Virus record (IMG/VR): IMGVR_UViG_3300044731_001157
DNA from: an uncultured virus (IMG/VR IMGVR_UViG_3300044731_001157)
Taxonomy: Duplodnaviria; Heunggongvirae; Uroviricota; Caudoviricetes
Reading direction: 5' to 3' (one strand)
Length of the DNA: 20,000 bases
Shown: in pieces, positions 3,509 to 18,638 of the stretch
Layout: the number at the start of each line of letters is the position of its first letter
Numbering within the stretch: the first letter of the stretch is position 1
The notes under the pieces: generated by a model
The model's database searches: none
Seen by the model: the letters and a program-made list of their open reading frames with translations, nothing else
What the model was told of the DNA's origin: nothing
Position numbers and translations under genes: made by a program

Positions 3509-3534
3509 TACTTTTGAAGTTAGAAACTTTAAAA
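3509..3534 (+). promoter_or_regulatory. Bacteroidota-type -7 promoter element upstream of the 3543 gene
   Basis: TACTTTTG (TAnnTTTG) at 3509-3516 in one of the few intergenic gaps, followed by AACTTTAAAA as in the repeated minus-strand promoters. Confidence 0.5.
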
Positions 3535-3542
3535 TAAAAAAA

Positions 3543-3968: not shown

Positions 3969-3969
3969 A

Positions 3970-4281: not shown

Positions 4282-4290
4282 AAAAAAATT

Positions 4291-6017: not shown

Positions 6018-6018
6018 A

Positions 6019-6432: not shown

Positions 6433-6788
6433 ATAAAGAGGTAAAAACGCTATTAATAACATTGGGAGTTGCTTTAGGTTTAGTATGGATTTTTAAACCT
6501 AAAAAAAGCGATTCAAGTTCAACTTCAACAAGTAGCGGTGGTAAATATTTAGAGCCAAAAGAAGCTACTGAAGATGTGAAAAAAGAAAAAGAAAATGCCG
6601 TTATTGGACTTCAAGCTATGCGTGAAGCAATTAACTCTGGAGAAAAGAAAGCGGAATTAGATAAATTAAGTGCTATGATTCTAAAAGAAAACGGAATTAA
6701 AGTGGTTATTTCAAAAAAAACAAGCTTGTTGAGAGCTATGAATAAAAAAGGTAATGTAATTGCTGAAGAAGAAATAGACAATAAATAA
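6429..6788 (+). CDS. N-terminally membrane-anchored protein
   Basis: ATGA overlap with the previous stop; LLITLGVALGLVWIF helix. Confidence 0.8.
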   Translation: MNKEVKTLLITLGVALGLVWIFKPKKSDSSSTSTSSGGKYLEPKEATEDVKKEKENAVIGLQAMREAINSGEKKAELDKLSAMILKENGIKVVISKKTSLLRAMNKKGNVIAEEEIDNK

Positions 6789-6790
6789 TC

Positions 6791-7231
6791 ATGGGAACGG
6801 TAATAGCTACAACAAAAACTTTCAATAATGGAGCAATATCAGTTGTTAGTACAGATGGAACTTCATACGAATCCATATTAAATTCTATGGGGAGTTTTGT
6901 TTATGGCGTTGAAAAAGTATATGTAAAGGCTAATTCAAACTCTCAAATTTTAAATGGTTTTAAGGTAGAGCAGTATGATGTTAGTGGTTATATAAGGTCA
7001 TTTGAACAAAAACCAACTATCGACCCTTATCAATATCAAAAGTCTGTTTTTTTTAAAATGACAAAAGAAAATGTTGTCTTGAACGGACAAACAACATTTG
7101 ATTTGAATGTTTTGCCTAATGAAGTTGTTTATATGAATATTTATGTAAATCAACTTGCATTAAGAGATTATGTTTCTAAAACTTCTTTTTTTGATAACGA
7201 TTTTTTTAATAATTTTAAAGATGTCTTGTAA
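6791..7231 (+). CDS. beta-rich soluble protein, possible single jelly-roll capsid-associated protein
   Basis: Alternating hydrophobic strands, IDPYQYQ motif, no TM helix. The fold is an inference. Confidence 0.4.
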   Translation: MGTVIATTKTFNNGAISVVSTDGTSYESILNSMGSFVYGVEKVYVKANSNSQILNGFKVEQYDVSGYIRSFEQKPTIDPYQYQKSVFFKMTKENVVLNGQTTFDLNVLPNEVVYMNIYVNQLALRDYVSKTSFFDNDFFNNFKDVL

Positions 7232-7685
7232 CATAAACGATTTAAACCAAATTAAAATTCAAAATAGAGAGCATACCATATCTAAACTACAAACTGGAGA
7301 TTTAATAAAATCAAAAGTAGAAGTTTTGCCGATATTGTATCATTATGGAATTATTGAAAGGCAAGGAGATAAGCTATTCATTTACCACAACCAAACTGAT
7401 AAAATCAATTCAAATGGCGGTAATTTAATTTGTGAGCCTTTGGAAAACCATATAAAAGGAAAGGACATAATTTCGGTTACTAAAACAAATTTAAGTAGTG
7501 CTGATTTGAATCAAATGTACGATGCTTTGAAAGGCTATAAATATGACTTTATTAATTTCAATTGTGAGCATTATGTAAATTTTGCAACTGATAAAAAATT
7601 TATAAGTAATCAGGTTTTTAAATGGGGTTCTATTGTGGCAATTGGAATATTAGTTACTTACTTAATTAGAAAAAATAAAATATGA
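7221..7685 (+). CDS. LRAT-like permuted NlpC/P60 protein (acyltransferase/phospholipase family) with C-terminal TM helix
   Basis: LQTGDLI...YHYGI...IYH...YDFINFNCEHYV (H-box and NC-box); start reassigned to ATG 7221 (MSCNIND). Confidence 0.8.
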   Translation: MSCNINDLNQIKIQNREHTISKLQTGDLIKSKVEVLPILYHYGIIERQGDKLFIYHNQTDKINSNGGNLICEPLENHIKGKDIISVTKTNLSSADLNQMYDALKGYKYDFINFNCEHYVNFATDKKFISNQVFKWGSIVAIGILVTYLIRKNKI

Positions 7686-8023
7686 ATTTAAGTATAAATT
7701 TAAAGATAACAAATAATATTGGTGCAGAATTACCAATATCTATTTTGGGCGTTATTCAAAATCAAGATTCTTTTAATAATATTAATACTGTATATGAGTT
7801 TGATTTAAGTGGAGAAACTCTTAATTCTGTTTTATTTGTTTTTGCTTATTCTACGATAGCTCAACCATCAGTTAATATACAATATTTTTTTAACAATCCT
7901 ACGCCAACCATTCAAGGTTATGTAGATGATTTAAACACTTTAAATGTTGGTTATTTTACATACTATGGAACTACAATTTATATGTTAAGCAATAATTATA
8001 TTGGTAAGTCTATAAAAATATAA
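7682..8023 (+). CDS. beta-rich hypothetical structural protein
   Basis: Start overlaps the 3' end of the previous gene by 4 nt; last gene before the terminator. Confidence 0.65.
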   Translation: MNLSINLKITNNIGAELPISILGVIQNQDSFNNINTVYEFDLSGETLNSVLFVFAYSTIAQPSVNIQYFFNNPTPTIQGYVDDLNTLNVGYFTYYGTTIYMLSNNYIGKSIKI

Positions 8024-8026
8024 CAT

Positions 8027-8057
8027 AAAAAAAAGACCGATTTTACTCGGTCTTTTT
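8027..8057. terminator. bidirectional intrinsic terminator between convergent modules
   Basis: AAAAAGACCGA-TTTTAC-TCGGTCTTTTT perfect hairpin with T runs on both strands. Confidence 0.85.
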
Positions 8058-8154
8058 AATTTTCTAATTTAAAATAAGCATGAAAAAATATCTGCAAAGT
8101 GTTACATTTTTCAGAAAATGAAAACTTTTGTGATTACAAATATAATTAAAAAAA

Positions 8155-9006
8155 CTATTCCTCTATAAGTTCGGCTTCGTTTTTTACGTTTAATGAATTG
8201 TAAAGGCTGTTTTTTCTTTTGCCAATAATGTTACCTTGAATTAATTTCACATTATCATTATCATCTACGATTAAATAGCTACCGCCTTCAATATTATCAT
8301 CAGTAGAAATTGCTTTTTTCAATCGGTCATCTTGCTTTGGAAGTGTTTTTGCCAATTGCTTTAAAACTACTTTTTTAATCATCCAATTCTCTGGGTCTTT
8401 TTTATCATTGAAGTACAGTTCATTTGATACTTTTAGAGTGTTGATAACACCTTTTACTTCTTTAGTTGACATAACTTTGAAAGTAACTTCGTTATCTTCT
8501 AATTTAGCACAAGCGTAAACAAACTTGATTTTGCTATTGCTTCTATCGGCATCGTGGTTCGGTATATGAACTAATTTTGGCTCTAAACCCATTTCGTAAA
8601 TAAAGTCATCATCTTCATAAACCACTTCAGTCCAAATTTTCTTAATTTTATCCGACCTCAATAGAAGCGTTATAAGACCTTTATATCCTAAAACTGGTGT
8701 TATGGTATCTTTGAAAGGAATAAAGAAAAACTCGCCTACCATTTGGCTTGGAGATAAGTCTAATTCAGCACAATGTAAGATACTTGCAAACAAACTTGCT
8801 GGATTCTTTAAAAAGGCTTCTTGGAGTTTAACGCTTTTCTTAATTTCAGTAATTACAACTTGTTTGAACTTTGCAGGAGTAAAACTTGAGTTCTCAAGTA
8901 ATTCTACAAGGTTCTTTTGCTCATAAATACCCATAGTGTGAGTAAACTTATCAATTAATGATAATTCACGTTTAGGAGCAGGGGAATTAATCGGTTTGTT
9001 TTCCAT
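8155..9006 (-). CDS. recT: RecT-family single-strand annealing protein
   Basis: PASLFASILHCAELDLSP..GEFFFIPFK...LGYKGLITLLLRS...EVVYEDDDF...WMIKKVVLKQLAKTLP. Confidence 0.9.
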   Translation of the reverse strand: MENKPINSPAPKRELSLIDKFTHTMGIYEQKNLVELLENSSFTPAKFKQVVITEIKKSVKLQEAFLKNPASLFASILHCAELDLSPSQMVGEFFFIPFKDTITPVLGYKGLITLLLRSDKIKKIWTEVVYEDDDFIYEMGLEPKLVHIPNHDADRSNSKIKFVYACAKLEDNEVTFKVMSTKEVKGVINTLKVSNELYFNDKKDPENWMIKKVVLKQLAKTLPKQDDRLKKAISTDDNIEGGSYLIVDDNDNVKLIQGNIIGKRKNSLYNSLNVKNEAELIEE

Positions 9007-9235
9007 AATACATTTTATCTAAAAGTTTTAAAAATTCTTGTTCTTGGTTTTTAAGTTCTATTATATACAAAGTGATGTTTTCAATTTCTATAAAAATCTT
9101 ATTCATATTGACTTTTGAGATTTGTACCCTATTATCAATAGAATATTTTTTCAACTGATTTTTATATTTCAAAAAATATTGAATATCATTTTGAACAACG
9201 CCAACCGCATAATATATTTCTCTTTCATTTATCAT
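8987..9235 (-). CDS. hypothetical protein
   Basis: 82-aa ORF overlapping both neighbours in the operon. Confidence 0.6.
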   Translation of the reverse strand: MINEREIYYAVGVVQNDIQYFLKYKNQLKKYSIDNRVQISKVNMNKIFIEIENITLYIIELKNQEQEFLKLLDKMYYGKQTD

Positions 9236-10017
9236 TATATCGTATAATATACTTGTTCAATGCTTGGTATGGTTAATTTGTGTTTGCAATCAGTTAACGG
9301 ACAGATTTTGCAAAGTTTTAAACTTGGGTAAGGCTTGAAATTATGCTTATTTAGCACAACTTCTTCATAAACCTTATCAACCGCTTCTAAATGACTTTGA
9401 AAAGCATCAGGGTCAATGTTTATCTTTATGATTTTAGCATCCTCTGGGTCTTTTGAATTGAATATAAAAAAGTAAAAATCAATATCTTCATAATCGACCT
9501 CGCATACTTCCGACAACAAAATGGTATAGTGTACCGCTTGTATCATTAAATTGTCCTTGTAAGGCAAAGATTCGGTTTCCCAACCCATTTCATTCCATTT
9601 GTCATCTAATAGTCCGCTATACTTTAAATCGATAACGCATAGCCTATTATTGAATTTTGCCACAATGTCTAATATACCAGTACGATTTTCCCTTGTAATA
9701 ATTTTGCCAGTTTCAATTATTTCGATTTTATAATGGTCAATTACTTTTTTGAAGAACTCGGCACTTGCATTGGCTCTTTCGTAATCAGTAGATAATTTCT
9801 CTTTTGCAGTTCCTTTGTAAATAATTTCTGGAGCAGGTATTTCGCCAGTTCTCGGTAAGCACCCAGTCGCCATAAACTCAAAGTAATTTCCTGCGTTCAT
9901 TACGCCTGATGATGGAAAAACAACCCCATCTACATACTTTGCTTTTACTTGTAAGCCACAAGCTCTTTTTTGTTTGTACTTGCTATATTCTTTTACGAAT
10001 GATTGAGAGATTTTCAT
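9235..10017 (-). CDS. PD-(D/E)XK RecB/Cas4-like exonuclease (likely RecT partner)
   Basis: GILDIV...VIDLKYS...QAVHY motifs; N-terminal Cys plus C-terminal CKICPLTDC (Fe-S-type arrangement). Confidence 0.85.
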   Translation of the reverse strand: MKISQSFVKEYSKYKQKRACGLQVKAKYVDGVVFPSSGVMNAGNYFEFMATGCLPRTGEIPAPEIIYKGTAKEKLSTDYERANASAEFFKKVIDHYKIEIIETGKIITRENRTGILDIVAKFNNRLCVIDLKYSGLLDDKWNEMGWETESLPYKDNLMIQAVHYTILLSEVCEVDYEDIDFYFFIFNSKDPEDAKIIKINIDPDAFQSHLEAVDKVYEEVVLNKHNFKPYPSLKLCKICPLTDCKHKLTIPSIEQVYYTI

Positions 10018-10018
10018 A

Positions 10019-10723
10019 TTAAAATAATGATGTTTGTGATTTTTTATTTTTTAATCTTTTTGTTGAACTATTATAAAATTCTTTATCAATTTCGCAACCT
10101 AAAAAATTTCTTTTTTCTTTCATACAAGCTAATGCAGTAGAACCACTTCCACTAAAACAATCTAAAACTAAATGATTTTCGTTAGAATGAATTAAAAGCA
10201 ATCTTCTTAATAAATCTAAAGGTTTTTCAGTAGGGTGTATTCTTTCAGATGAACTTGGAGAAGAATATTCGTAAACTTTTAATTGGTCTTTAACTCCTAT
10301 TGAATTAAAAGTAGCACTTTTACCTCTTACATAAACCATAAATTCTACATCACTTATGTAGTTTCCATTTCCTAAAGGTATTGGATTTGGTTTTCTCCAT
10401 ATTAGAAGTGTTACTGAATATCCTTTATTTTCCCAATAAGACATTATTTTACTTATTTGTCTATTACTACAAAAAATAATCATATTTGGTACTTTACATA
10501 TTCTATCAAACTCACTAAAAACTTTATCATAATCAAAGCCATTAGAAATAAAATTAATGTGTCGTTCTCGAGTTAATTTTCTCTCAAAATAACCATCTTT
10601 AACTAAACCTCCATGAATTTCGTGTTCGTATGGTGGGTCTGTTAATATTAAGTCTATTGATTTATCTTCTATTTTTGATAAAAAATCAAGGCAATCTTCG
10701 TTATATATTTGGTTTAATTCCAT
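10019..10723 (-). CDS. N6-adenine/N4-cytosine DNA methyltransferase, beta class (orphan)
   Basis: DLILTDPPY precedes HPTEKP and VLDCFSGSGST. Confidence 0.93.
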   Translation of the reverse strand: MELNQIYNEDCLDFLSKIEDKSIDLILTDPPYEHEIHGGLVKDGYFERKLTRERHINFISNGFDYDKVFSEFDRICKVPNMIIFCSNRQISKIMSYWENKGYSVTLLIWRKPNPIPLGNGNYISDVEFMVYVRGKSATFNSIGVKDQLKVYEYSSPSSSERIHPTEKPLDLLRRLLLIHSNENHLVLDCFSGSGSTALACMKEKRNFLGCEIDKEFYNSSTKRLKNKKSQTSLF

Positions 10724-11013
10724 TATTTATTGTTCAAGTTATTAATTTTGTCGTATTCTTCTTTTAGTAGCCACCCATCACTGGTATATTCTTTACCAAC
10801 CCACACGAACTCATTTCCTTTGCGTTTGCGAGTAGATATTCCAACAATAGGCGTTTCTACTCTTACATCGATAAGTCTTTTGAAATCTATTTGAATTTGG
10901 GATTTATATTGCAAGTCAACAAGCATTTGGTCTGCATCGTTTTTATTTTCCGCTTCCATGATTATTGGTTTGTCCATTCCTAAAAAAAAGTATTTGTAGA
11001 ATCGTGTTTTCAA
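10723..11013 (-). CDS. hypothetical protein
   Basis: 96-aa ORF (TTG start); stop overlaps the MTase ATG. Confidence 0.65.
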   Translation of the reverse strand: MKTRFYKYFFLGMDKPIIMEAENKNDADQMLVDLQYKSQIQIDFKRLIDVRVETPIVGISTRKRKGNEFVWVGKEYTSDGWLLKEEYDKINNLNNK

Positions 11014-11142
11014 AGTAAACTATTTATTTCGGTGTTTGTTTTGAATAAAAATCATTGCAAAAACCTATTTGAATTGAAAGCATTGTATATTTGTTGGAAT
11101 TACACTTTTATCCATTGGTGTTTTATGGTTTCTTGGAAAGTG

Positions 11143-11171
11143 AAAAGGGAGGATTTATCTTCCCTTTTTTT
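11143..11171 (-). terminator. intrinsic terminator-like hairpin after the 11170 gene
   Basis: AAAAGGGAGGAT-TT-ATCTTCCCTTTT on the + strand. Confidence 0.6.
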
Positions 11172-11472
11172 ATTCTTTGTAATCTAAACCATCAAACTCA
11201 TCTACATCATCTACAATTATCACATTACCAGCAATAAAATCACTTGGGTAAATTAGATTATCTTCTTTTGCTCTACGAGTAGCTTCTTCGTTATATTCCA
11301 ATCCTTTCAGTTTACCTTCCTCATCTAACAGCATTAATCTACCATCTGACATTGTTAGTATTTCAATTGGACTTTCATAATGGTCTTTAGAAACGAAATG
11401 TTTGGCATCTTTGAAAGTTTTTACGTTAACTTTTTTAATATCGCCTTCGGTTGTAATTAAAGTAACTTGCAT
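11170..11472 (-). CDS. DUF3846-like phage protein
   Basis: IEIL...MLLDEEGKLKGLEYNEEAT...DFIAGNVII signature. Confidence 0.75.
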   Translation of the reverse strand: MQVTLITTEGDIKKVNVKTFKDAKHFVSKDHYESPIEILTMSDGRLMLLDEEGKLKGLEYNEEATRRAKEDNLIYPSDFIAGNVIIVDDVDEFDGLDYKE

Positions 11473-11488
11473 TTTGTTTATTATTAAA

Positions 11489-11529
11489 TTTTAAAGTTCG
11501 TAACAAATATAAAAAGTTTTTTGGTTCTA
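11489..11529 (-). promoter_or_regulatory. repeated early promoter, copy A
   Basis: Minus strand TAGAACCAAAA..TATATTTG..GAACTTTAAAA upstream of ATG 11472. Confidence 0.8.
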
Positions 11530-11537
11530 AAAAATAA

Positions 11538-11849
11538 TTAATCAATATTTTTTATCTTAAAAGCAGTTTTTATTTGTTCAATAGGTTTTTTTAGTTCTGG
11601 ATTACGTTGCAACACTAATCTACTCATTCTTGAAATGGTGTTAATCTTGGCTGTTTTATCCTTGAATTTACTATTGAAGTATGTAAACACATCATACCCA
11701 CTCATCTCATTGATTTTATCTTTACCTAATTCGTAAAAATAAAAAGTAAATATAAGTCGGTCTGTATCATTACATAGTTCGGGTACTTTTTCTAATAGAA
11801 ATTTTACCTTTGCGTAAGTGCTTTCTAATTTTTTAAATTCTACTTCCAT
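11538..11849 (-). CDS. hypothetical helical protein (possibly DNA-binding)
   Basis: 103-aa ORF overlapping the upstream gene. Confidence 0.65.
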   Translation of the reverse strand: MEVEFKKLESTYAKVKFLLEKVPELCNDTDRLIFTFYFYELGKDKINEMSGYDVFTYFNSKFKDKTAKINTISRMSRLVLQRNPELKKPIEQIKTAFKIKNID

Positions 11850-12138
11850 AAATGTTTCCTTTATATGCGAAAATTACCTGATTTTTATCAGATATGTTTT
11901 CTGTTATTTCAAAATAAATATCTCTCATCATTTGTCTTGATTCAGCAATAGACCTACCATTAAAAAACCAATAGTAGTTGCCATCTTTATAAGTTCCAAA
12001 CATATATCTATGTCCAGAGTTAATTTCAGAATCCAAAGGCGATAACATTACTATATTTATTCCGCTTTCGGTAAATTCCGTAAACTCACATTTTTTTCGT
12101 AAAGCCTTTAAATCAAAGGGTATTGTTGTTAAATCCAT
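11833..12138 (-). CDS. hypothetical protein
   Basis: 101-aa ORF preceded by a TATATTTG -7 element (12157-12164, minus strand). Confidence 0.65.
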   Translation of the reverse strand: MDLTTIPFDLKALRKKCEFTEFTESGINIVMLSPLDSEINSGHRYMFGTYKDGNYYWFFNGRSIAESRQMMRDIYFEITENISDKNQVIFAYKGNIYGSRI

Positions 12139-12169
12139 CTTGGTATGTTTTAATTACAAATATAATAAA

Positions 12170-12227
12170 TCTTATCTAATAAAATAAAACATATTTAATA
12201 TAATATAAAATATCTTATTAGATAAGA
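12170..12227. repeat. 17-bp inverted repeat (16/17) with 24-bp AT-rich spacer
   Basis: TCTTATCTAATAAAATA (12170-12186) versus TATCTTATTAGATAAGA (12211-12227). Confidence 0.8.
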
Positions 12228-12229
12228 GT

Positions 12230-12994
12230 TTAATCTTGTTGTTCTTGGTTTGTATTAGGTTCAATAGTGCTTTCTAATTCTTTAAAAGAATCAATTGTAT
12301 TATAAGTTAATTGCTTATATAACATATTGTGCATGTCGAAAAAATCGTGAACTAATTTTCTGTTTTCAAAGCTATCACGATAATAGATGCAATCGGTATT
12401 CCAACTCTCGAAGTTTTCGCCTAAAAGAATTGATAATTCGTACATCATAAAAAAGCAACTCAAACGAATATCTTTGTAAATCAATTTCATTGCTTTATTT
12501 TCTTTTTTTAAGGTAACTGTTTCAACATATTCTCCATTTTCATAACGCTCATATTTTTTTTCTGAACCCAATACTCCTAAAGTAGCCAAACGAATATTTT
12601 TTGATTTTTCATCTTTAATACCATGTTGGTACGTTTTTTTAGAAATATAACCCTTAACATAAGCAATTCTCCAATAGGCGTGGTCTAAATCAGTTCCAGT
12701 AAGAGTTCCTACTTCATCGTCATAATCGTAGTTGTAATCTTTTATTTTTTTTTGAGGTGGCAAATCAATAAATGGATTATTATCAATAAATTTTTTCACA
12801 TCATCATTAACCATTTTAAATAAATACAATTTGTTTTTTGGAAAATTTTTATTTTCGGTGGCGAAAAGATAGTGGTTATCATCAAAAATAATTTGGTTTA
12901 TTTCACTACCTTTTCTTATAAAAAAATTATGTTTTCCTCCAACTAATTTTTTGTAAATTCTATCACAAGAAAAATTCTTAAAATATTTTTTCAT
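12230..12994 (-). CDS. minimal family-B DNA polymerase-like protein (palm/fingers only)
   Basis: Motif A-like GTDLDHAYW, motif B-like KNIRLATLGVLG and motif C-like SWNTDCIYY in the correct order. Confidence 0.7.
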   Translation of the reverse strand: MKKYFKNFSCDRIYKKLVGGKHNFFIRKGSEINQIIFDDNHYLFATENKNFPKNKLYLFKMVNDDVKKFIDNNPFIDLPPQKKIKDYNYDYDDEVGTLTGTDLDHAYWRIAYVKGYISKKTYQHGIKDEKSKNIRLATLGVLGSEKKYERYENGEYVETVTLKKENKAMKLIYKDIRLSCFFMMYELSILLGENFESWNTDCIYYRDSFENRKLVHDFFDMHNMLYKQLTYNTIDSFKELESTIEPNTNQEQQD

Positions 12995-12996
12995 AA

Positions 12997-14022
12997 TTAA
13001 TAAATCTTACCTCCTTTTTCAAACTTATCTATAATTTGTTGTTGTCTTTGTTGAAATTGTCTTTTAGTAATTAAGCCTTTTTCAAAATCTTTTCTTAAAT
13101 CATTCATAGAACGCTCAAAACTTTGTTGTCTATCTCTTTGTAGTTTTAAAATTTCTAAATCAATATTTTTGTCAGTAGGTACTTTAGGTGTATCTTCAAT
13201 TTTTGCTTTTGATTGAGTAACACTTTTTGGCTCTACCTCTTTAGGCTTTAATCTTGCTTCTGCTTTTCTTCTTTTTTCTTTTTCCTTTTTTTGTTTCTTT
13301 TTTTCTTCCTCTCTTAAAATCCTTTCCTGTTTTTTATCTTCTGGTAAATCTTCTAATTTAGTTTTAGTAAAAATTTCATCTTTGTCTGTTTCTATGTCTA
13401 AAGAAGAATTATTGAAAGTTACTAAAACATAATAACTACAAGGCTTACCATCGTCTTTTTTATTTGGTTGAACTAAAATTTTAAATATAATAGTTGGTAA
13501 TTCTTCGCTCTTATTTGCTTCATTTACATAAACATTTCTAATTTTATCCCTTATTTCTGTCATATTAGGCATTAAAGACTTTTTTATAATACCAGTATCA
13601 ATTATTCCATCAAAAACAAAACGCATAGGTAAATTAGGCTCAAAAACATCCCAAATATCACTATCCCCAATAAGAAACCACTCTCTATCAATTAAATCAA
13701 TAGCAGGAACATCAAGAGCAGAAAAACAATCCTCAATCGGTTTTGGTGTAGGTGTAGGTGCTGGTTGTTTTCCTTGTTGAATTTTATCATTAAATTCTAA
13801 TTCAATATCAGATAACTTAACCCTATTATGTGTTTTCCCTTTAAAGTTAGGATAAACATTTTTTGATGCAAAACGCATACTTTCACTCCAAGTCCACCCT
13901 AACTTTTTCTTTTTGTTAAGTTCGTGTACTTTTTTAGCTACTTTTAGCCAAGTCTTTCTACCATTTGGCTTTTTAGCCTTTGGTTTATTGACTTTTTTAT
14001 TAGTTGGTTTATTTTTGCTCAT
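12997..14022 (-). CDS. basic N-terminal, coiled-coil C-terminal protein of unknown function, cotranscribed with the PolB-like gene
   Basis: Lys-rich N-terminus, PAPTPTPKP linker, globular core, EK-rich coil; stop 2 nt before the PolB-like ATG. Confidence 0.75.
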   Translation of the reverse strand: MSKNKPTNKKVNKPKAKKPNGRKTWLKVAKKVHELNKKKKLGWTWSESMRFASKNVYPNFKGKTHNRVKLSDIELEFNDKIQQGKQPAPTPTPKPIEDCFSALDVPAIDLIDREWFLIGDSDIWDVFEPNLPMRFVFDGIIDTGIIKKSLMPNMTEIRDKIRNVYVNEANKSEELPTIIFKILVQPNKKDDGKPCSYYVLVTFNNSSLDIETDKDEIFTKTKLEDLPEDKKQERILREEEKKKQKKEKEKRRKAEARLKPKEVEPKSVTQSKAKIEDTPKVPTDKNIDLEILKLQRDRQQSFERSMNDLRKDFEKGLITKRQFQQRQQQIIDKFEKGGKIY

Positions 14023-14305
14023 CTTTTAATTCAAAATTTTTATATTTTAAAATAGTGCTTTTTGATAAATTAAAATAGATTTGTGCTTCTTTGATTTTTT
14101 TATGCTTACAAAAATCAGAAATAGCAACTTTCGTTTTATCAGAAACGGCATATCTTTTTTTGCCAGTATCAGTCAAATTATGTTTGGTGCAATGAAAGTT
14201 TATTACACTACGATTACAATTCAAAATACTTTCTATTTCTCTATAACTCTTACCTTGTTTTCTTAACTCAAGGATTTCTAATTTTAATTTTCTATATCCA
14301 GACAT
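14009..14305 (-). CDS. helix-turn-helix DNA-binding protein
   Basis: ILELRKQGKSYREIESILNCNRSVINFH HTH, plus a second HTH-like EAQIYFNLSKSTILKY. Confidence 0.8.
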   Translation of the reverse strand: MSGYRKLKLEILELRKQGKSYREIESILNCNRSVINFHCTKHNLTDTGKKRYAVSDKTKVAISDFCKHKKIKEAQIYFNLSKSTILKYKNFELKDEQK

Positions 14306-14392
14306 AATGAAGTTTTTGGTTTAAATTTTTAAATTTGTGTCAAAAAAAGTGGCAACAAGTACCACTATTATTTTTTAGATATTTTAAAATAT

Positions 14393-14638
14393 CTATTTAA
14401 GTTTGTTCCAAAGGTCTTTTAATGGCGTTTGCTCAAATTTAATTCCTTCAGCAAATTCTATTTTAGGACTTTGAAAACCAGTTGAAGTAGATTCCGTTTC
14501 ATCTTCCCCTAATGAAACAGAAGTATTACCAACAACAATTTCGTCTTTTTTAAAGAACGAATAAACGAAAAAAGCAACTGCTCCTACAAGTATAGCTCCT
14601 CCTCCGTAATACAACATTTTTTTAGTATTTGAATCCAT
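14393..14638 (-). CDS. small N-terminally membrane-anchored protein
   Basis: LYYGGGAILVGAVAFFVYSFFKK helix; own -7 element TACATTTG at 14655-14662 (minus strand). Confidence 0.75.
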   Translation of the reverse strand: MDSNTKKMLYYGGGAILVGAVAFFVYSFFKKDEIVVGNTSVSLGEDETESTSTGFQSPKIEFAEGIKFEQTPLKDLWNKLK

Positions 14639-14691
14639 AATAATTTATTTTTGTCAAATGTACTAAAAAAAATAAACCAATGAACATTAAT

Positions 14692-14883
14692 TTAAAAAGG
14701 ACATTTAATTACTTCCTTTGGTTTAACTATTTCTATTTTTTCTCTTTGTAGTTTTTCAGAAATTGAATCACGAATAAAGTCGCAAACTCTAACATTATAG
14801 TTTTCTAACTTTTTTAAAGTTTGATATTGAACTTCTGTAAGTTTTACTACTTTAGATTTTGTATATTTTATAGGCTTTGACAT
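14692..14883 (-). CDS. ribbon-helix-helix (CopG/Arc-like) DNA-binding protein
   Basis: KVVKLTEVQYQTLKKL...VCDFIRDSISEKL strand-helix-helix pattern. Confidence 0.65.
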   Translation of the reverse strand: MSKPIKYTKSKVVKLTEVQYQTLKKLENYNVRVCDFIRDSISEKLQREKIEIVKPKEVIKCPF

Positions 14884-14930
14884 AAATAAGTAATACTTTT
14901 ATTGTGGTTAGCGATAAGTTATGTGCCATA

Positions 14931-15239
14931 TTAAGACACAACTTCGACAAAATCATTTTCGGTAATATTGAATGAATGATAACCACTTTCAGTATAACCA
15001 ACTTGACATTTAAGTATAGCGTAAACAAAAGGATGATTATAGCCATTTACTGGATTACTTCTTTTAAATTGAATAATGCTACCTTTTTTATATTTCTGAC
15101 ACCAAATAACATCTTTTGTTAATCTACCAATTTTCATAGTTGATTTTTTAAAGTTTTCAATTTCGTGTCTATCAAAATACTCATTTAATTCCTCAAATGA
15201 ATTTGGATATTTTCTTTGTAACCATTTTAAACTGTTCAT
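14931..15239 (-). CDS. cassette 1 cargo, hypothetical protein
   Basis: ORF fills the cassette; start is either ATG 15239 or ATG 15266 (which overlaps the att box). Confidence 0.7.
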   Translation of the reverse strand: MNSLKWLQRKYPNSFEELNEYFDRHEIENFKKSTMKIGRLTKDVIWCQKYKKGSIIQFKRSNPVNGYNHPFVYAILKCQVGYTESGYHSFNITENDFVEVVS

Positions 15240-15254
15240 AATTCGATAAAATAC

Positions 15255-15391
15255 GGCACATAACATCGGTTTTGCAATAGTGGGGCTTTAGTGCTAAAAC
15301 AAACATTTGTACCTTGATTAAACATTAGTAATAAATTCAACTTTTCGGCTTCGATTTCCCCACCATCGCAAAGCCCCGTACCGTTAGCAAA
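15255..15391 (+). repeat. attC-like site 1
   Basis: GGCACATAAC-ATC-GGTTTTGCAATAGTGGGG ... CCCCACCATCGCAAAGCC-CCGTACC-GTTAGCAAA. Confidence 0.85.
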
Positions 15392-15737
15392 CATTTTGCG
15401 TAACGTTGTGAAAAGAACAAACAAAATCTAATTGTTCTTTAAAATTCGGGTATTGAAAATGCGGGTAATTGAAAACTTCCGAATAATGTATTTCCATAAT
15501 TCTAATATATTCCTCTCTTATAGTTTCATTAAAAATATCTTCAAAAACAGAACCTTCGTCAAACATTTTTAATTTTTGTGCTATTTTTTCGCAATGAATG
15601 TGATTTTTCCAAACATAAACATCATCTTCTTTACAAAATGCTCTTGTATAGGTTTCGCCTACTTTTATTTTTTCATTACACCAATCGCAAGTATGTTCTT
15701 TTCTAGCCTTTGGAGTTGTAAAACTTATTGTTTCCAT
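15384..15737 (-). CDS. cassette 2 cargo, zinc-finger-type phage protein
   Basis: KARKEHTCDWC...HIHC; the stop codon is formed by the GTTA box. Confidence 0.8.
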   Translation of the reverse strand: METISFTTPKARKEHTCDWCNEKIKVGETYTRAFCKEDDVYVWKNHIHCEKIAQKLKMFDEGSVFEDIFNETIREEYIRIMEIHYSEVFNYPHFQYPNFKEQLDFVCSFHNVTQNVC

Positions 15738-15748
15738 AATAAAAACGA

Positions 15749-15886
15749 TTTGCTAACATCGGTTTTGCTCTATTGCGGTTTTAGGCTTAACTGGATGTTC
15801 GGTTTGTATTTATTAATTTTGTTTTTAAATCTAAAGTTTTGGTTTACTTTTCCGCAACAAAGCAAAGCCGAGAAACGTTAGCACCA
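15749..15886 (+). repeat. attC-like site 2
   Basis: TTTGCTAAC-AT-CGGTTTTGCTCTATTGCGG ... CCGCAACAAAGCAAAGCCG-AGAAAC-GTTAGCACCA. Confidence 0.88.
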
Positions 15887-15890
15887 ATGA

Positions 15891-16142
15891 TTAAACAAGG
15901 CGAAGTTCAGCGACATTCACCCAAAAATCATCGTACTTAGGGTCATCTTCATTTTCAGTAGTTCGTATTAGCACATCTTCGCCTTGTATCTCAGTAACCC
16001 AATAATCCCAACTTTCGGGATAATTTCGTTTTACCTTTTGATTGATAGACAAATCACTGGTGCTAACAACAGATTGCTTCAATTGCGAGTGATACGCATC
16101 TACAATCTTTTGTGCTTCTAAATATTCTCTGTGTGTTATCAT
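15891..16142 (-). CDS. cassette 3 cargo, small protein (possible SH3-like C-terminal barrel); starts inside the attC-like loop
   Basis: ATG at 16142 lies in the loop of site 3 with an A-rich leader; LSINQKVKR...WVNVAELRLV. Confidence 0.7.
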   Translation of the reverse strand: MITHREYLEAQKIVDAYHSQLKQSVVSTSDLSINQKVKRNYPESWDYWVTEIQGEDVLIRTTENEDDPKYDDFWVNVAELRLV

Positions 16143-16195
16143 GATTTTTCGTTTTTAAATTCGCAACTAAAGCAATCTGCAATCCGTTATGCGAT
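16058..16195 (+). repeat. attC-like site 3
   Basis: TGGTGCTAAC-AA-CAGATTGCTTCAATTGCGA ... TCGCAACTAAAGCAATCTG-CAATCC-GTTATGCGAT. Confidence 0.88.
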
Positions 16196-16396
16196 ATTAT
16201 TTGATTTAAATAAATATAATTTAGCTATTATTCTATCTATTTCACTAATTCTGCCTAATGTTATACTTGTTTGCCTTCTTTTTTTAAGCATAAACAAGCG
16301 TTCTTCAAAACCTAAAATTAAATATTTCAACGTAACATCGCATAACACAGGTTTTGTGCTATTGCTTGGCTCAGTGTTTAAATTTTGTTCAGTCAT
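16187..16396 (-). CDS. cassette 4 cargo, small helical protein; starts inside the attC-like loop
   Basis: ATG 16396 in the loop of site 4; stop TAA is the GTTA box at 16186-16189. Confidence 0.7.
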   Translation of the reverse strand: MTEQNLNTEPSNSTKPVLCDVTLKYLILGFEERLFMLKKRRQTSITLGRISEIDRIIAKLYLFKSNNIA

Positions 16397-16476
16397 AATT
16401 TGTTATTTTTAGTGTTTAATTAATGTTTTGGTTTATTTTTACGCAACATGCACAAAGCCTGATAACGTTATTCGTT
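16337..16476 (+). repeat. attC-like site 4
   Basis: ATCGCATAAC-AC-AGGTTTTGTGCTATTGC ... GCAACATGCACAAAGCCT-GATAAC-GTTATT. Confidence 0.85.
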
Positions 16477-16713
16477 TTTTTGAATTAAAACATAATCAAC
16501 AAAATTACAAGTATTTCCGTTTCTGTCAAGTGTAGTTTTAGGAACTGATTGTATATCCATACCTCTATTTCTTAAATTGTAAATAATAGCAGAAAGTCTT
16601 GTAGCTCCGTATAGTTCAATAGCTGTCCAAGAATTAATAAATCCTTTTTGATACAAGTGTTTTTTTACTTGACTTGTTTTTGTAACCATGTGGTTTTCTT
16701 GTGAATTTTCCAT
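16468..16713 (-). CDS. winged helix-turn-helix phage protein (HTH_39-like)
   Basis: HLYQKGFINSWTAIELYGATRLSAIIYNLRNRGMDI signature. Confidence 0.8.
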   Translation of the reverse strand: MENSQENHMVTKTSQVKKHLYQKGFINSWTAIELYGATRLSAIIYNLRNRGMDIQSVPKTTLDRNGNTCNFVDYVLIQKNE

Positions 16714-16734
16714 TTTTTTTAGTTTTAAAAGTTA

Positions 16735-16926
16735 TTAATTCAATCTTAATAGTGCATCCGACATTTCTTGGTCGTTAGTGTAATTAACTGACTTGATATG
16801 GTACGCCATCCAATGAAGAAAAGCCATAGATTTATCTTCTTGATTTTTTTTCCAATTTTCTGGAATATAAACACTTTGTACGTTAAGAGTTTCCTCTGAT
16901 AGCTGTAATTGATTTTCAGTTGACAT
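16735..16926 (-). CDS. hypothetical protein
   Basis: 63-aa ORF directly downstream of promoter copy B. Confidence 0.65.
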   Translation of the reverse strand: MSTENQLQLSEETLNVQSVYIPENWKKNQEDKSMAFLHWMAYHIKSVNYTNDQEMSDALLRLN

Positions 16927-16937
16927 GATTGATTATG

Positions 16938-16984
16938 TTTTAAAGTTCATACCAAAATTACAAAAGTATTTTGGTTCTACAAAA
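16938..16984 (-). promoter_or_regulatory. repeated early promoter, copy B
   Basis: Minus strand TTTG-19 nt (TAGAACCAAAA...)-TAATTTTG, then GAACTTTAAAA; full Bacteroidota -33/-7 consensus. Confidence 0.85.
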
Positions 16985-17003
16985 TAGATTAGTTAATTTT
17001 TTG

Positions 17004-17366
17004 TTAATCTTTTGATATTAACCTCTTTAATGGTATTGAAACGTAACTGTTTCCATCATATTTTCCCTTATAAATATTACTATTTCCAGCTATTTCCCAA
17101 CCTTCTTCTTGCTTTTCTTGTAGCCTTGCGTTTATGTACCCACTATTGTAATCAATTACCATAAACTCATACTCTTTTTTGTTGGTTTCTTTTGGAATTT
17201 GTAAGTTGTTGTTAATCGTTAGGTTAATTGTAAAAACCTTTGTCAATAAAAATATTACTAATGCACAATGCAAACCAAACATTAAATTTAAAAAATCCCC
17301 ATACCAATTAAAAGCAGAAGCTATGTTTAATACTAATGCTCCATATAACCATAAATTATATTTCAT
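17004..17366 (-). CDS. protein with two N-terminal TM segments and a small C-terminal domain (DUF4177/DUF1737-like)
   Basis: Hydrophobic N-terminus; KEYEFMVI...LQEKQEEGWEIAG...IPLKR. Confidence 0.55.
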   Translation of the reverse strand: MKYNLWLYGALVLNIASAFNWYGDFLNLMFGLHCALVIFLLTKVFTINLTINNNLQIPKETNKKEYEFMVIDYNSGYINARLQEKQEEGWEIAGNSNIYKGKYDGNSYVSIPLKRLISKD

Positions 17367-17367
17367 T

Positions 17368-17799
17368 TTATTTGTCTTTTAAAAGTTCTGGATTCTCGTA
17401 AATATTTCCTTCTACAAATGTTTTTTTTATCCAATATCCTAAATCGTGTCTAAAGATATTGTTATTAAATTCATCTTGAAATTCTAAATAAAATCCAATG
17501 TGATTAGCGTGTCTATCATCTGTTGAATTAGAATAAGAGCCAAAATTGACAACTCCTTTAATGTCCTCGTTAAAATGATAAGGCATTACATCCCCTTCGT
17601 AAATTTCATTACCATTTTTATCAGTCAATCCAGTAAACTGCATAGCCACAAAAGACTTGTCGGCAAATAAGTCGTTAATTGGTGCATGGTCAGAAAAACA
17701 AAACCTATCTCCGTAAAGCATTTCGTTTTCACATTCGTCTTTTTCCTCGTTAAGTTCTCCAAACTTACCCCAGAATCTAAATTTAATTTGTCTATCCAT
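17368..17799 (-). CDS. YopX-family phage protein
   Basis: RQIKFRFW...MQFTGLTDKNGNEIYEGDV...VEGNIYENPELL. Confidence 0.93.
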   Translation of the reverse strand: MDRQIKFRFWGKFGELNEEKDECENEMLYGDRFCFSDHAPINDLFADKSFVAMQFTGLTDKNGNEIYEGDVMPYHFNEDIKGVVNFGSYSNSTDDRHANHIGFYLEFQDEFNNNIFRHDLGYWIKKTFVEGNIYENPELLKDK

Positions 17800-18197
17800 T
17801 ATTTATTTTTATTAAGGTTATCAATTGCAGACTTAATTTCGTGATAGTTAGCGTTAAGTCTATTTGCGTTAATCATTACTAAAATAGCTCTTGGTATGGC
17901 TATTAGGTTGTCTAAATTGTCATTATACCTATCTTTATCTAAATGATATAATATCCATCCTTTAGGTATTTCTCCATAGGCATCTTCATAAACCTTTCTT
18001 GGTCGCCTTACCCTCTTATTTGTGTCGGAAAACAAATAAACACAATCGCTTTTAAATATTTGCTCTCCGCCTTTCCAACTTGGGTGGTTGCTACCAGTAA
18101 ATTGACCTTTTTTAAATTCTGTTTTTGGACTTAAATGAATACCTTTTAATCCTTTGTTCCAAACAGTATGTCCTTTCTCGAATTTATTTCTTGGCAT
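17799..18197 (-). CDS. HNH endonuclease with NUMOD-like N-terminal repeats
   Basis: KFEKGHTVWNKG / TEFKKG, NHPSWKGG, GEIPKGWILYHLDKDRYNDNLDNLIAI. Confidence 0.8.
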   Translation of the reverse strand: MPRNKFEKGHTVWNKGLKGIHLSPKTEFKKGQFTGSNHPSWKGGEQIFKSDCVYLFSDTNKRVRRPRKVYEDAYGEIPKGWILYHLDKDRYNDNLDNLIAIPRAILVMINANRLNANYHEIKSAIDNLNKNK

Positions 18198-18313: not shown

Positions 18314-18559
18314 TTAATTAGTTTTAAAATAATCGCTAAATTCAACTAATCTTAATCCACTCTCTTTTTGATAAGCAGAGCTACCAATACTTCCAGTAGA
18401 AAAATGAGAATCTTCATCAGCAAATACTACTATTGCTGTTTCGTGTTCCGCCATTTGAGAAACCCATTCCATATAACAATATTCTATACCTATGAAATCA
18501 CGAGCTTTGTTATATTCGTTTTCGTTTCTAATAATAATTGATAATCCAATAAATTCCAT
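18314..18559 (-). CDS. hypothetical acidic protein, first gene of the early operon
   Basis: 81-aa ORF immediately downstream of promoter copy C. Confidence 0.7.
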   Translation of the reverse strand: MEFIGLSIIIRNENEYNKARDFIGIEYCYMEWVSQMAEHETAIVVFADEDSHFSTGSIGSSAYQKESGLRLVEFSDYFKTN

Positions 18560-18568
18560 TTTATTTAG

Positions 18569-18615
18569 TTTTAAAGTTCGGAGTAAAAGTAAGAATGTTT
18601 TTTGGTTCTACAAAA
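18569..18615 (-). promoter_or_regulatory. repeated early promoter, copy C
   Basis: Minus strand TTTG-19 nt (TAGAACCAAAA...)-TACTTTTA, then GAACTTTAAAA. Confidence 0.8.
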
Positions 18616-18638
18616 TGTTTTGTTGATTATTTTTAAAA

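What the first reader, a model, noticed from the sequence alone, without database searches (positions are those of the whole stretch)
14918..16476. Phage-borne integron-like cassette array with exact cassette-end complementarity
Seen: four imperfect hairpins of nearly constant size (118-120 nt between the left AAC and the right GTT) separate four small genes. Their sequences differ but their geometry is shared: AAC + 2-3 nt, an 18-19-bp stem, then 6-7 nt + GTT. Each left box pairs with the GTT box at the far end of its gene rather than with its own right box: GTTATGTGCC(14918)/GGCACATAAC(15255), GTTAGCAAA(15383)/TTTGCTAAC(15749), GTTAGCACCA(15877)/TGGTGCTAAC(16058), GTTATGCGAT(16186)/ATCGCATAAC(16337). 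Three of these pairings extend to 14-16 bp with one mismatch. Established: this is the footprint of integron cassettes that circularise and recombine at G|TT of the attC R' box. Inference: a cassette capture/shuffling system operates on a Bacteroidota phage, using a recombinase supplied in trans or encoded elsewhere. The extended outer pairing and the 4-nt spacer asymmetry differ from canonical attC, so standard models may miss these sites.
Basis: partly seen in the sequence, partly recalled or inferred. Interest (0 to 1): 0.92.

Follow-up and report, generated by a model that had tools for sequence, protein, structure and literature searches.

The report
Integron-like gene cassettes in a phage
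Four small genes of this lake-water phage are packaged as swappable cassettes bounded by folding DNA sites that work like integron sites but belong to a separate system of flavobacteria and their phages, one that pairs with a simpler Xer-like recombinase.

Summary
The four ~126-nt hairpins (15261-15386, 15754-15880, 16064-16189, 16343-16470) belong to a covarying family, TAACA...CGTTA. I found 235 copies in 41 loci.

Each gene is enclosed by a 10-15-nt complementary pair that opens with GTTA:
- 63 of 78 viral intervals and 41 of 45 chromosomal intervals show it (perfect run of 9 or more).
- The all-vs-all control gives 1.5%.

Sister Flavobacterium phages reassort the unit "gene + hairpin to its right", with breakpoints exactly at CG|TTA. 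One lake-metagenome contig lacks exactly cassette 3 (309 nt).

The same sites fill arrays in Flavobacteriaceae chromosomes. These start about 30 nt after a Xer-like tyrosine recombinase that lacks the IntI insertion. The window has no recombinase, and neither does its complete 70-kb relative. One other phage encodes a short one beside its array start.

Phage cassettes carry their genes antisense to the site. Chromosomal cassettes carry them sense.

Closest published work: phage CALINs (Qi 2023) and rAID-1 clusters of Bacteroidales (Ross 2019). Neither describes this hairpin, its crossover point or these phage arrays.

Earlier notes of this scan report the same system on at least eight other windows. 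Recombinase activity is inferred, not shown.

The parts
14692..14883 (-). Small RHH-like gene (63 aa, phrog_25647) that flanks the array start
   Evidence: PHROG hit at 1.9e-20; no Pfam hit. A similar 56-72-aa gene starts 34-53 nt from the array-start box at 9 of 10 phage array starts examined.
14884..14921 (+). attI-like array-start site: AAGTAATACTTTTAT (14888-14902) ... CGATAA|GTTA, with the lone GTTA box at 14918 and no hairpin to its left
   Evidence: The lone box pairs 10/14 with the left box of hairpin 1. A similar flank (GTAATACTTTT ... TTGTA|GTTA) occurs at array starts of other phages. Three sister phages share the flank but have different first cassettes.
14919..15383 (+). Cassette 1 (465 nt): gene 14931-15239/15266 on the minus strand, plus hairpin 1
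   Evidence: End boxes GTTATGTGCC / GGCACATAAC. Cassette unit defined.
15261..15386 (+). Hairpin 1 (attC-like site, TAACA...CGTTA)
   Evidence: R2 model 84 bits, E 7.6e-13.
15384..15877 (+). Cassette 2 (494 nt): gene 15384-15737 on the minus strand (117 aa, phrog_7314), plus hairpin 2. The gene's TAA stop is the TTA of the GTTA box.
15754..15880 (+). Hairpin 2
   Evidence: R2 122.7 bits. Metagenome contigs diverge right after its GTTA, at 15880 and 15882.
15878..16186 (+). Cassette 3 (309 nt): gene 15891-16142 on the minus strand (83 aa), whose start codon lies in the loop of hairpin 3
   Evidence: A contig of run X3 joins 15875 to 16185, skipping 309 nt with 5 ambiguous letters, while another contig of the same run covers the cassette.
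16064..16189 (+). Hairpin 3
   Evidence: R2 68.9 bits.
16187..16467 (+). Cassette 4 (281 nt): gene 16187-16396 on the minus strand (69 aa). Its start lies in the loop of hairpin 4 and its stop is the TTA of hairpin 3's GTTA.
16343..16470 (+). Hairpin 4, last site of the array
   Evidence: R2 115.4 bits. 80-87% identical copies in 46 Flavobacterium phage records and one Zobellviridae phage, with homology ending at the boxes.
16468..16713 (-). Backbone winged-helix gene (81 aa, HTH_39) that abuts the array. Its TAA stop is the TTA of hairpin 4's GTTA.
   Evidence: Pfam 3.4e-11. Replaced by a different 143-aa gene in the relative.

Best explanation
The four hairpins are attC-like, structure-specific recombination sites. 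The interval 14919-16467 is an array of four mobile gene cassettes, inserted at an attI-like site beside a small RHH-like gene in a lake-water phage of Flavobacteriia type.

A cassette runs from the TTA of one GTTA box, through one gene, its complementary box and TAAC, and through the hairpin to the G of the next CGTTA. Once excised and circularised, the two boxes pair (15 bp, with a fixed G.T at position 11 on the bottom strand) and extend the hairpin into a complete site.

Strand exchange occurs within CG|TTA. It is probably carried out by a Xer-like tyrosine recombinase that reads the folded single strand. This phage encodes no such enzyme, so it would come from the host chromosome's own recombinase-plus-array platform or from a co-infecting phage.

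In phages the genes lie antisense to the site. The hairpin therefore sits upstream of its gene, its loop can carry the start codon, and the invariant TTA gives a TAA stop at the cassette's end.

Shown: site family, covariation, box complementarity, cassette unit, exact breakpoints, a natural cassette-less variant, and linkage of arrays to the recombinase. Inferred: single-strand folding as the substrate, which enzyme acts, supply in trans, and present-day activity on this phage.
For: Structure: 15 of 17 pairs covary. Loop length varies from 63 to 189 nt around conserved arms.

Cassette ends: 63 of 78 viral and 41 of 45 chromosomal intervals have a perfect run of 9 or more, against 1.5% in the control. 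Position 11 is A in the right box and G in the complement of the left box in 98 of 100 pairs with a run of 10.

Cassette unit: of 53 pairs of homologous gene bodies, 30 keep both neighbouring hairpins, 22 keep only the right one and 1 keeps only the left one. Seven cassette families occur in 2-4 contexts. Identity ends exactly at CG|TTA on both sides.

Same locus, different content: the window has 4 cassettes. L067/L068 (81% identical flanks) have 1. L004 (similar RHH gene and flank) has 4 others.

Natural variant: an X3 contig lacks exactly cassette 3. X2 contigs diverge at 15880 and 15882.

Folding: circular junctions gain 3.6-12.2 kcal/mol on the bottom strand.

Recombinase: in L062 a 402-aa tyrosine recombinase gene is followed after 30 nt by a lone box, then six hairpins with runs of 10 in 4 of 5 intervals. 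A profile of this protein hits 106 of 151 sampled Flavobacteriaceae genomes. By my reading of the two tables, a same-strand hairpin lies 25 kb or less downstream at 12 loci in 11 genomes. Phage record G159 has a 277-aa homologue (41% identity, E 3e-52) whose start codon lies 52 nt from its array-start box.

DNA rather than RNA function: the site's asymmetries follow the array, not transcription. Genes are antisense in 73 of 78 viral intervals and sense in 40 of 45 chromosomal intervals.
Against: - No recombination has been shown for any enzyme on these sites, and no circles were seen. Only assembled contigs were available, and those cannot show circles.
- The cassette-3 deletion rests on one 327-nt contig with 30 letters on its short side.
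- The window (38 ORFs scanned) and its complete 70-kb relative have no tyrosine recombinase, and 4 of 5 complete array-bearing viral records have none.
- The recombinase-array link is co-location. The recombinase family is found in 106 of 151 genomes but hairpins in only 59 of 151 (a search limited in sensitivity). Several arrays have no recombinase nearby: G001 C49, G097 at 3.92 Mb, G010.
- Opposite gene polarity in phage and chromosome argues against free exchange between the two pools.
- Hairpin-4-like sites sit on unrelated gene bodies in other phages, and there is 1 exception. So exchange at the left end, or inside hairpins, also happens.
Confidence: 0.8

Rival explanations
1. An ordinary integron remnant: canonical attC sites forming a CALIN, recombined by a classical integron integrase (IntI) of the host, as already reported for some phages.
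For: The logic is the same: AAC/GTT cores, cassette-end complementarity and a crossover at G|TT. HattCI flagged one family member, P12002L_attC1, as an attC in a published phage survey. Integrons are said to occur in Bacteroidota (passage).
Against: TIGR02249 (integron integrase) passes its cut-off in 0 of 5 array-bearing genomes. The recombinases beside arrays score 192-212 bits against a cut-off of 265. They have 92 residues between the first catalytic Arg and HxxR, leaving no room for the IntI insertion. IntI1 recombined five of six phage sites, and the failure was the member of this family. The IntegronFinder 2 preprint names a single complete integron within Bacteroidetes proper (Salinibacter ruber), besides those in Chlorobi and Ignavibacteriae, although 59 of 151 Flavobacteriaceae genomes hold these hairpins. 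The spacer is asymmetric (1 vs 5-6 nt) and the R pairing is 15 bp.
Confidence: 0.08
2. Regulatory intergenic modules (promoter, translation start or terminator hairpins in the mRNA) that are reassorted by homologous recombination between repeats, like the mobile regulatory cassettes recalled from T4-type phages.
For: The elements are intergenic. Loops are AT-rich and carry the start codons of genes 3 and 4. The strand that folds better is the gene-sense strand. The phage encodes RecT and a PD-(D/E)XK exonuclease.
Against: Neighbouring hairpins are only 58-70% alike, yet junctions are exact, with only CGTTA shared. Gene-specific complementary boxes are not explained. The same asymmetric site is read in the opposite sense relative to transcription in chromosomes (40 of 45 sense) and phages (73 of 78 antisense). 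This argues against a conserved RNA role. Arrays start next to a tyrosine recombinase.
Confidence: 0.07
3. Passive palindromic repeats (REP/MITE-like) that spread on their own. The genes between them are not mobile units, and the box pairing is a by-product of the repeats' insertion targets.
For: The copy number is high and they are widespread in host-family genomes, often at contig ends.
Against: The hairpin travels with the gene on one fixed side (22 vs 1). Whole gene + hairpin units appear in 2-4 contexts. A precise 309-nt unit is missing in a natural variant. No HUH or transposase partner was seen, and the linked enzyme is a tyrosine recombinase.
Confidence: 0.03

Closest known systems
Integrons (IntI, attI, attC cassettes), especially sedentary chromosomal integrons
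   Same: Imperfect hairpin sites with AAC...GTT cores and a variable loop. Each cassette's two ends are complementary. The crossover lies at G|TT. There is one array-start site next to a tyrosine recombinase gene. Cassettes are small and mostly of unknown function.
   Different: The linked recombinase lacks the IntI-specific insertion and has an extra ~105-aa N-terminal region, or is a bare 277-aa enzyme in a phage. The outer pairing is 15 bp with a fixed G.T, and the spacer is asymmetric. In chromosomes the recombinase gene is co-oriented with and upstream of the array. In phages the cassette genes lie antisense to the site.
CALINs (attC clusters without integrase) in phage genomes: Qi et al. 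2023, Front Microbiol, PMC9892861 (passages and one supplement read)
   Same: Integrase-less clusters of attC-type sites in virulent phages. Their Polaribacter phage P12002L_attC1 lies at L069 30008-30056, where my model gives only a weak, non-significant match (18.7 bits, E 0.45). I take it as a probable short-loop member of this family because its oligo has the same core, spacer and stem layout.
   Different: They report 17 CALINs in 10,705 phage genomes and two sites in P12002L. Flavobacterium phages are not mentioned in the main text or the held supplement, although morran9-1 alone has 13 sites. They assume IntI. P12002L_attC1 was the one site of six that IntI1 did not recombine. They report no cassette reassortment, no breakpoint mapping and no alternative recombinase.
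rAID-1 (recombinase-associated acquired interbacterial defence) clusters of Bacteroidales: Ross et al. 2019, bioRxiv 10.1101/471110 (passages read)
   Same: A XerD-like tyrosine recombinase gene at the 5' end of a co-oriented array of short, low-GC genes, with repetitive intergenic sequences 'reminiscent of integrons'. This is the layout of L062.
   Different: rAID-1 is described in gut Bacteroidales chromosomes and defined by immunity genes. The passages I read give no hairpin structure, crossover point or phage-borne arrays. A 2025 preprint still calls its biogenesis mechanism unknown. I could not compare the two recombinases by sequence. The window itself has no recombinase.
Mobile regulatory cassettes (promoter-stem-loop modules) of T4-type phages (recalled, no paper read)
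   Same: Repeated structured intergenic modules between small early genes in the plastic region of lytic phages, linked to gene shuffling.
   Different: Those modules are thought to act through homologous recombination between near-identical repeats. Here the repeats differ, the junctions are exact at a 5-nt core, and each gene has its own complementary end boxes.

Membership tests
Integron (IntI/attI/attC) | Integrase with the IntI-specific additional domain | tested here: not met
   TIGR02249 passes its cut-off in 0 of 5 array-bearing genomes. The array-linked recombinases score 192-212 bits against a cut-off of 265, matching in two stretches that skip the middle of the model. Arg to HxxR is 92 residues. 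The window and its 70-kb relative have no tyrosine recombinase.
Integron (IntI/attI/attC) | attC: imperfect hairpin with inverse-core ...AAC and core GTT... ends and a variable central part | tested here: met
   TAACA...CGTTA is invariant in the window's four sites. 15 of 17 stem pairs covary. Site lengths range from 63 to 189 nt.
Integron (IntI/attI/attC) | The left core of a cassette's site pairs with the core at the cassette's far end (the footprint of circular cassettes) | tested here: met
   Window pairs give 10/14, 9/12, 10/15 and 10/13. Overall 104 of 123 viral plus chromosomal intervals have a run of 9 or more, against 1.5% in the control.
Integron (IntI/attI/attC) | Crossover between G and TT of the right-hand core; the cassette is the ORF plus its own attC | tested here: met
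   Breakpoints fall within CG|TTA in seven cassette families. The gene travels with the right-hand hairpin (22 vs 1). The 309-nt joint agrees. Resolution is limited to the 5 shared letters.
Integron (IntI/attI/attC) | Canonical folded geometry (about 7-bp R box, roughly symmetric unpaired spacer, single extrahelical bases) | tested here: not met
   The outer pairing is 15 bp with a fixed A.C / G.T at position 11. The spacer is 1 nt on one arm and 5-6 nt on the other. The canonical geometry is recalled, not measured here.
Integron (IntI/attI/attC) | Cassette ORFs in the sense of the attC top strand | tested here: not met
   ORFs are antisense in 73 of 78 viral intervals, including the window. 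They are sense in 40 of 45 chromosomal intervals.
Integron (IntI/attI/attC) | Sites detected by IntegronFinder or HattCI models | not testable with these tools
   Neither program is on hand. Rfam gave no match in the window, but that says little: I know of no attC model in Rfam (recalled, not checked).
Phage CALIN (Qi et al. 2023) | Two or more attC-type sites within a few kb in a phage, with no integrase nearby | tested here: met
   Four sites lie within 1.2 kb and the window has no tyrosine recombinase. Whether their pipeline would call them was not tested.
rAID-1 (Ross et al. 2019) | XerD-like recombinase 5' of two or more co-oriented low-GC genes with repetitive intergenic sequences | tested here: not met
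   Not met in the window, which has no recombinase. The layout is met in the chromosomal relative L062.
rAID-1 (Ross et al. 2019) | Recombinase at least 44% identical to the B. fragilis NCTC 9343 reference | not testable with these tools
   The reference protein is in no collection that I could address by name.

The most novel reading that the evidence does not exclude
A second, IntI-independent kind of integron exists. Xer-like recombinases read long asymmetric hairpins. The system is common in Flavobacteriaceae chromosomes and possibly continuous with rAID-1 of Bacteroidales.

Lytic phages of these bacteria have taken it over in mirror image. In phage cassettes the recombination hairpin sits upstream of the gene and supplies its start signals, so each cassette is a self-contained expression unit. 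Co-infecting phages trade early accessory genes using the host's or another phage's enzyme.
Probability: 0.6. Interest if true: 0.88.

Novelty: new variant of a known kind. Interest (0 to 1): 0.8.

Why it matters
Integrons are the textbook device for capturing and shuffling genes, and they are defined by one enzyme family (IntI). The evidence here points to a parallel device with a different, simpler recombinase and a different site geometry.

- It is abundant in a major aquatic bacterial family and in their lytic phages.
- By the accounts I read, the standard integron tools report almost nothing in this group.
- It would explain how the many small early genes of these phages turn over. Such genes are often suspected of host take-over or anti-defence roles.
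- It would give a concrete mechanism to test for the unexplained biogenesis of rAID-type arrays.
- It offers isolated phage-host pairs (Flavobacterium LMO6/LMO9 and their phages) in which cassette exchange could be watched directly.

Tried and rejected
- The window's own genome is not held.
- Rfam gave nothing, there are no tRNAs, and megablast of the whole window against phages found no match.
- My first covariance model had no base pairs, because RNAalifold found no consensus. It served only as a sequence model.
- The best IntI-like hits of five genomes have no hairpins near them.
- The 20-kb flanks of the large array L023 hold an ABC-F ATPase, an efflux protein and a glyoxalase, but no recombinase.
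- tblastn of the array-linked recombinase against 50,697 phage records found one record that covers 80% or more of it. None of the 15 records listed was a Flavobacterium phage.
- Of the 21 genome-contig pattern matches, 10 (for example Weissella and Mariniphaga) had no model hit at E 0.01 or better and were dropped as chance.
- No joints other than the two listed were seen in four runs. Uncovered bins in X5 and X6 say nothing.
- Pfam found no domain in the four cassette proteins or the RHH-like protein.
- Literature searches found no paper describing these hairpin arrays in Flavobacterium phages or Flavobacteriaceae. Nilsson 2020 (PMC7077304) does not mention hairpins, intergenic repeats or integrases (term search).
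- I considered HUH/IS200-type or homing-endonuclease mobility and dropped it for lack of any linked enzyme. The HNH gene at 17799-18197 is 1.3 kb away and is not array-linked elsewhere.
Full report
**What the window is.** It is a 29% GC phage fragment. It carries RecT, a PD-(D/E)XK exonuclease, an N6/N4 DNA methylase and an HNH endonuclease. It has no tRNA, no Rfam match and no close relative among 50,697 phage records. The stretch is held by 24 listed water metagenome runs, mostly lake water, from 20 studies. All genes around the finding lie on the minus strand.

**The observation.**
- The four elements span 124-126 nt from AAC to GTT.
- Each left box pairs with the GTTA box on the far side of its gene: 10/14, 9/12, 10/15 and 10/13 (perfect run / matches in 16).
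- A hairpin's own two boxes give 4/8, 7/9, 4/8 and 5/11.
- Both strands fold, and the minus strand folds better by 0.5-3.3 kcal/mol.
- Joining each cassette's ends in silico lowers the bottom-strand energy by 3.6 to 12.2 kcal/mol and creates 14-16 outer pairs.

**A family, not four oddities.**
- A blastn of 14000-18000 hit 49 phage records, 46 of them Flavobacterium phages. Every listed hit covers only the fourth hairpin (window 16341-16481 at most) at 80-87% identity. The flanks do not match.
- A structured covariance model (R2, 17 pairs) finds 132 copies in 17 viral loci, 59 in 11 genome-contig loci and 38 in 12 chromosomal stretches.
- With six more in L062, the tally used is 235 copies in 41 loci, 63-189 nt long, median 126 nt.
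- Within a locus, all copies that passed the search threshold lie on one strand.
- 15 of 17 pairs change on both sides. The covariation score is 0.419, against 0.134 for shuffles (0 of 500 reach it) and 0.04-0.11 for slid partners.
- Invariant in the window's sites are TAACA on the left and CGTTA on the right.
- One stem position is T.G in 50 of 69 full-length rows. Another is A.C in 62 of 69. The site is therefore asymmetric and has a definable top strand.

**Cassette ends.**
- 63 of 78 viral and 41 of 45 chromosomal unique adjacent intervals (40-1500 nt) have a perfect run of 9 or more between the right box of one hairpin and the left box of the next.
- Only 1.5% of 33,660 all-vs-all box pairs do. 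A first pass with a weaker model gave 27 of 49 against 2.6%.
- The pairing is stereotyped: GTTA + 6 variable nt, then A opposite C (G.T on the bottom strand) in 98 of 100 pairs with a run of 10, then 4 more pairs.

**What the mobile unit is.**
- Box pairing alone cannot say which hairpin belongs to which gene. Comparison can.
- Among 159 gene bodies between hairpins, 53 pairs are homologous (85% or more). Of these, 30 keep both flanking hairpins, 22 keep only the right-hand one (in TAACA-to-CGTTA orientation) and 1 keeps only the left-hand one. These pairs come from related phages and are not independent events.
- The same right-hand hairpin is followed by up to three different next cassettes.
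- Aligned junctions show identity ending exactly at CG|TTA on both sides of the unit.
- So a cassette runs from TTA, through the gene, its box and TAAC, and through the hairpin to CG. That is the integron rule.

**The window's locus varies in the same way.**
- Two viral contigs (L067 and L068) are collinear with the window at about 81% identity over 5731-14680 and 16710-17008. In between they carry 1182 nt instead of 2030 nt.
- That stretch holds one cassette: a lone box, a 189-aa gene and one hairpin.
- L004 has a similar RHH-like gene and array-start flank, followed by four other cassettes.
- In contigs of independent lake metagenomes, one contig of run X3 joins 15875 to 16185. It skips 309 nt with 5 ambiguous letters. 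That is cassette 3 (15878-16186) to the base. Another contig of the same run covers that cassette.
- X2 contigs leave the window's sequence at 15880 and 15882, directly after hairpin 2's GTTA.
- The deletion rests on a single 327-nt contig. The two hairpin ends share only CGTTA, so a repeat-driven assembly chimera is unlikely.

**Array start.**
- The lone box at 14918 has no hairpin to its left. It lies 34 nt from the start codon of a 63-aa RHH-like gene (phrog_25647).
- At 9 of 10 phage array starts examined, a 56-72-aa protein of the same pattern starts 34-53 nt from the box.
- The flanks share a motif (GTAATACTTTT ... TTGTA|GTTA).
- Three sister phages have the same flank but three different first cassettes, as expected for insertion at an attI-like site.

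**The enzyme.**
- The window (38 ORFs scanned against Pfam) and its complete 70-kb relative have no tyrosine recombinase. Four of five complete array-bearing viral records have none.
- The hairpins are also chromosomal. They occur in 59 of 151 sampled Flavobacteriaceae genomes at E 1e-4 or better, with only 22 candidates scored per genome. One MAG contig (L023) carries 20 in 15 kb.
- The IntI model passes its cut-off in 0 of 5 array-bearing genomes.
- In L062 a 402-aa tyrosine recombinase gene is followed after 30 nt by a lone box, and then by six hairpins on the same strand. 4 of the 5 intervals between them have runs of 10.
- Four such proteins are 34-42% identical. They have an extra ~105-aa N-terminal region and only 92 residues between the first catalytic Arg and HxxR.
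- They score 205-232 bits on NF040815 (XerA / integron integrase; cut-off 220) and 192-212 on TIGR02249 (cut-off 265).
- Their profile hits 106 of 151 genomes at E 1e-60 or better.
- Reading side by side, a same-strand hairpin lies 25 kb or less downstream at 12 loci in 11 genomes.
- 21 copies sit on the minus strand within 2.5 kb of a contig's first base, so the contig breaks just downstream of the gene, as a repeat array would cause. This is suggestive and was not systematically tested.
- Other arrays (G001 C49, G097 at 3.92 Mb, G010) have no recombinase nearby.
- One phage record (G159) encodes a 277-aa homologue (41% identity over 212 aa, E 3e-52). Its start codon lies 52 nt from its array-start box.

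**Polarity.**
- Relative to the site's top strand, the longest ORF is antisense in 73 of 78 viral intervals and sense in 40 of 45 chromosomal ones. Short MAG contigs of unclear nature give 24 of 28 antisense.
- The box asymmetry follows the site, not the genes. This argues for a function in DNA rather than in the transcript.
- It also means that phage and chromosomal cassettes are largely separate pools.
- In the phage polarity the hairpin lies upstream of its gene. Genes 3 and 4 start inside the loops. The invariant TTA serves as the TAA stop of genes 2 and 4 and of the backbone gene 16468-16713.

**Comparison with what is in print.**
- Qi et al. 2023 (PMC9892861; passages and one supplement read) screened 10,705 phage genomes with IntegronFinder and HattCI. 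They reported 3 complete integrons and 17 CALINs, including two sites in Polaribacter phage P12002L.
- Their attC1 lies at L069 30008-30056, where my model gives only a weak match (E 0.45). It was the one site of six that IntI1 did not recombine.
- Flavobacterium phages are not mentioned in their main text or in the supplement held. Other supplements were not visible to me.
- Ross et al. 2019 (bioRxiv 10.1101/471110; passages read) describe rAID-1 in Bacteroidales. It has a XerD-like recombinase 5' of co-oriented short genes, with repetitive intergenic sequences 'reminiscent of integrons'.
- A 2025 preprint still calls the mechanism of rAID biogenesis unknown.
- The IntegronFinder 2 preprint names one complete integron within Bacteroidetes proper, in Salinibacter ruber, besides those in Chlorobi and Ignavibacteriae.
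- Six literature searches found no description of this hairpin, its crossover point or these phage arrays.

**Earlier notes of this scan.** These report the same system on at least eight other windows. I used them as leads. The rAID-1 paper came from one of them. I re-tested here their claims about the Xer-like recombinase, the missing IntI insertion and the phage-borne recombinase.

**Verdict.** It is a new variant of a known kind: integron logic with a different recombinase, a different site geometry and a mirrored phage form. What remains inferred is the chemistry: a single-stranded substrate, which enzyme acts, and supply in trans.

Noticed in passing
window 10019-10723: The N6/N4 DNA methylase gene (234 aa) is missing from the otherwise collinear relative. 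Homology runs 5731-10021 and 10723-14680 with the relative's coordinates abutting, so this is a gene-sized indel with no hairpin at its ends.
   Followed up: partly
window 11471-11542, 16929-17008, 18550-18636: Three copies of a ~60-nt AT-rich intergenic repeat (core GTTTTAAAGTTCG ... GTTTTTTGGTTCTACAAAATA). It is also repeated in the relative L067 and is unrelated to the hairpins. It may be a set of early promoters or operators.
   Followed up: partly
window 14692-14883, and array starts in L003, L004, L005, L007, L008, L012, L015, L022: A small RHH-like protein gene sits 34-53 nt from the array-start box at 9 of 10 phage array starts. In phage G159 a recombinase gene occupies the same position. 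The protein is a candidate accessory factor or regulator of the array.
   Followed up: partly
L071 (G159:C1) 2695-4433: A complete 74-kb phage record encodes a 277-aa Xer-like recombinase without the N-terminal region. It lies divergent from the hairpins' top strand and 52 nt from the first cassette box, which is the classical integron layout apart from the antisense cassette genes.
   Followed up: yes
window 16343-16470 and its homologues (L003 6744-6873, L002 1353-1481, L005 5992-6120): The loop of the fourth hairpin carries an ATG and an open 18-codon 'head' that stays open in homologues, with some synonymous changes. It is joined to unrelated gene bodies in other phages. So hairpin and body are sometimes re-paired, which the right-end crossover alone does not explain.
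   Followed up: partly
L023 (Flavobacterium MAG contig) and L063 (G097:C1 1395000-1414999): Genes in or beside the chromosomal arrays include an EcoO109I-type restriction enzyme with a C5 methylase, a polyvalent-protein kinase, glyoxalase/bleomycin-resistance-like proteins and a TIR-Mrr fusion. A beta-lactamase-family protein follows the last detected hairpin of L063. The content looks like defence and accessory genes.
   Followed up: no
L062 oriented 5893-8119; L023; L022: Some chromosomal sites use CAAC...GTTG instead of TAAC...GTTA. The variant letter is matched in the partner box of the same cassette.
   Followed up: no
L003 5249-5312, 7321-7395, 7748-7810; L069 30008-30056: Short-loop versions of the site (49-93 nt) keep the arms and boxes. 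The sequence-only model missed them, and they explain most apparent gaps in arrays.
   Followed up: yes
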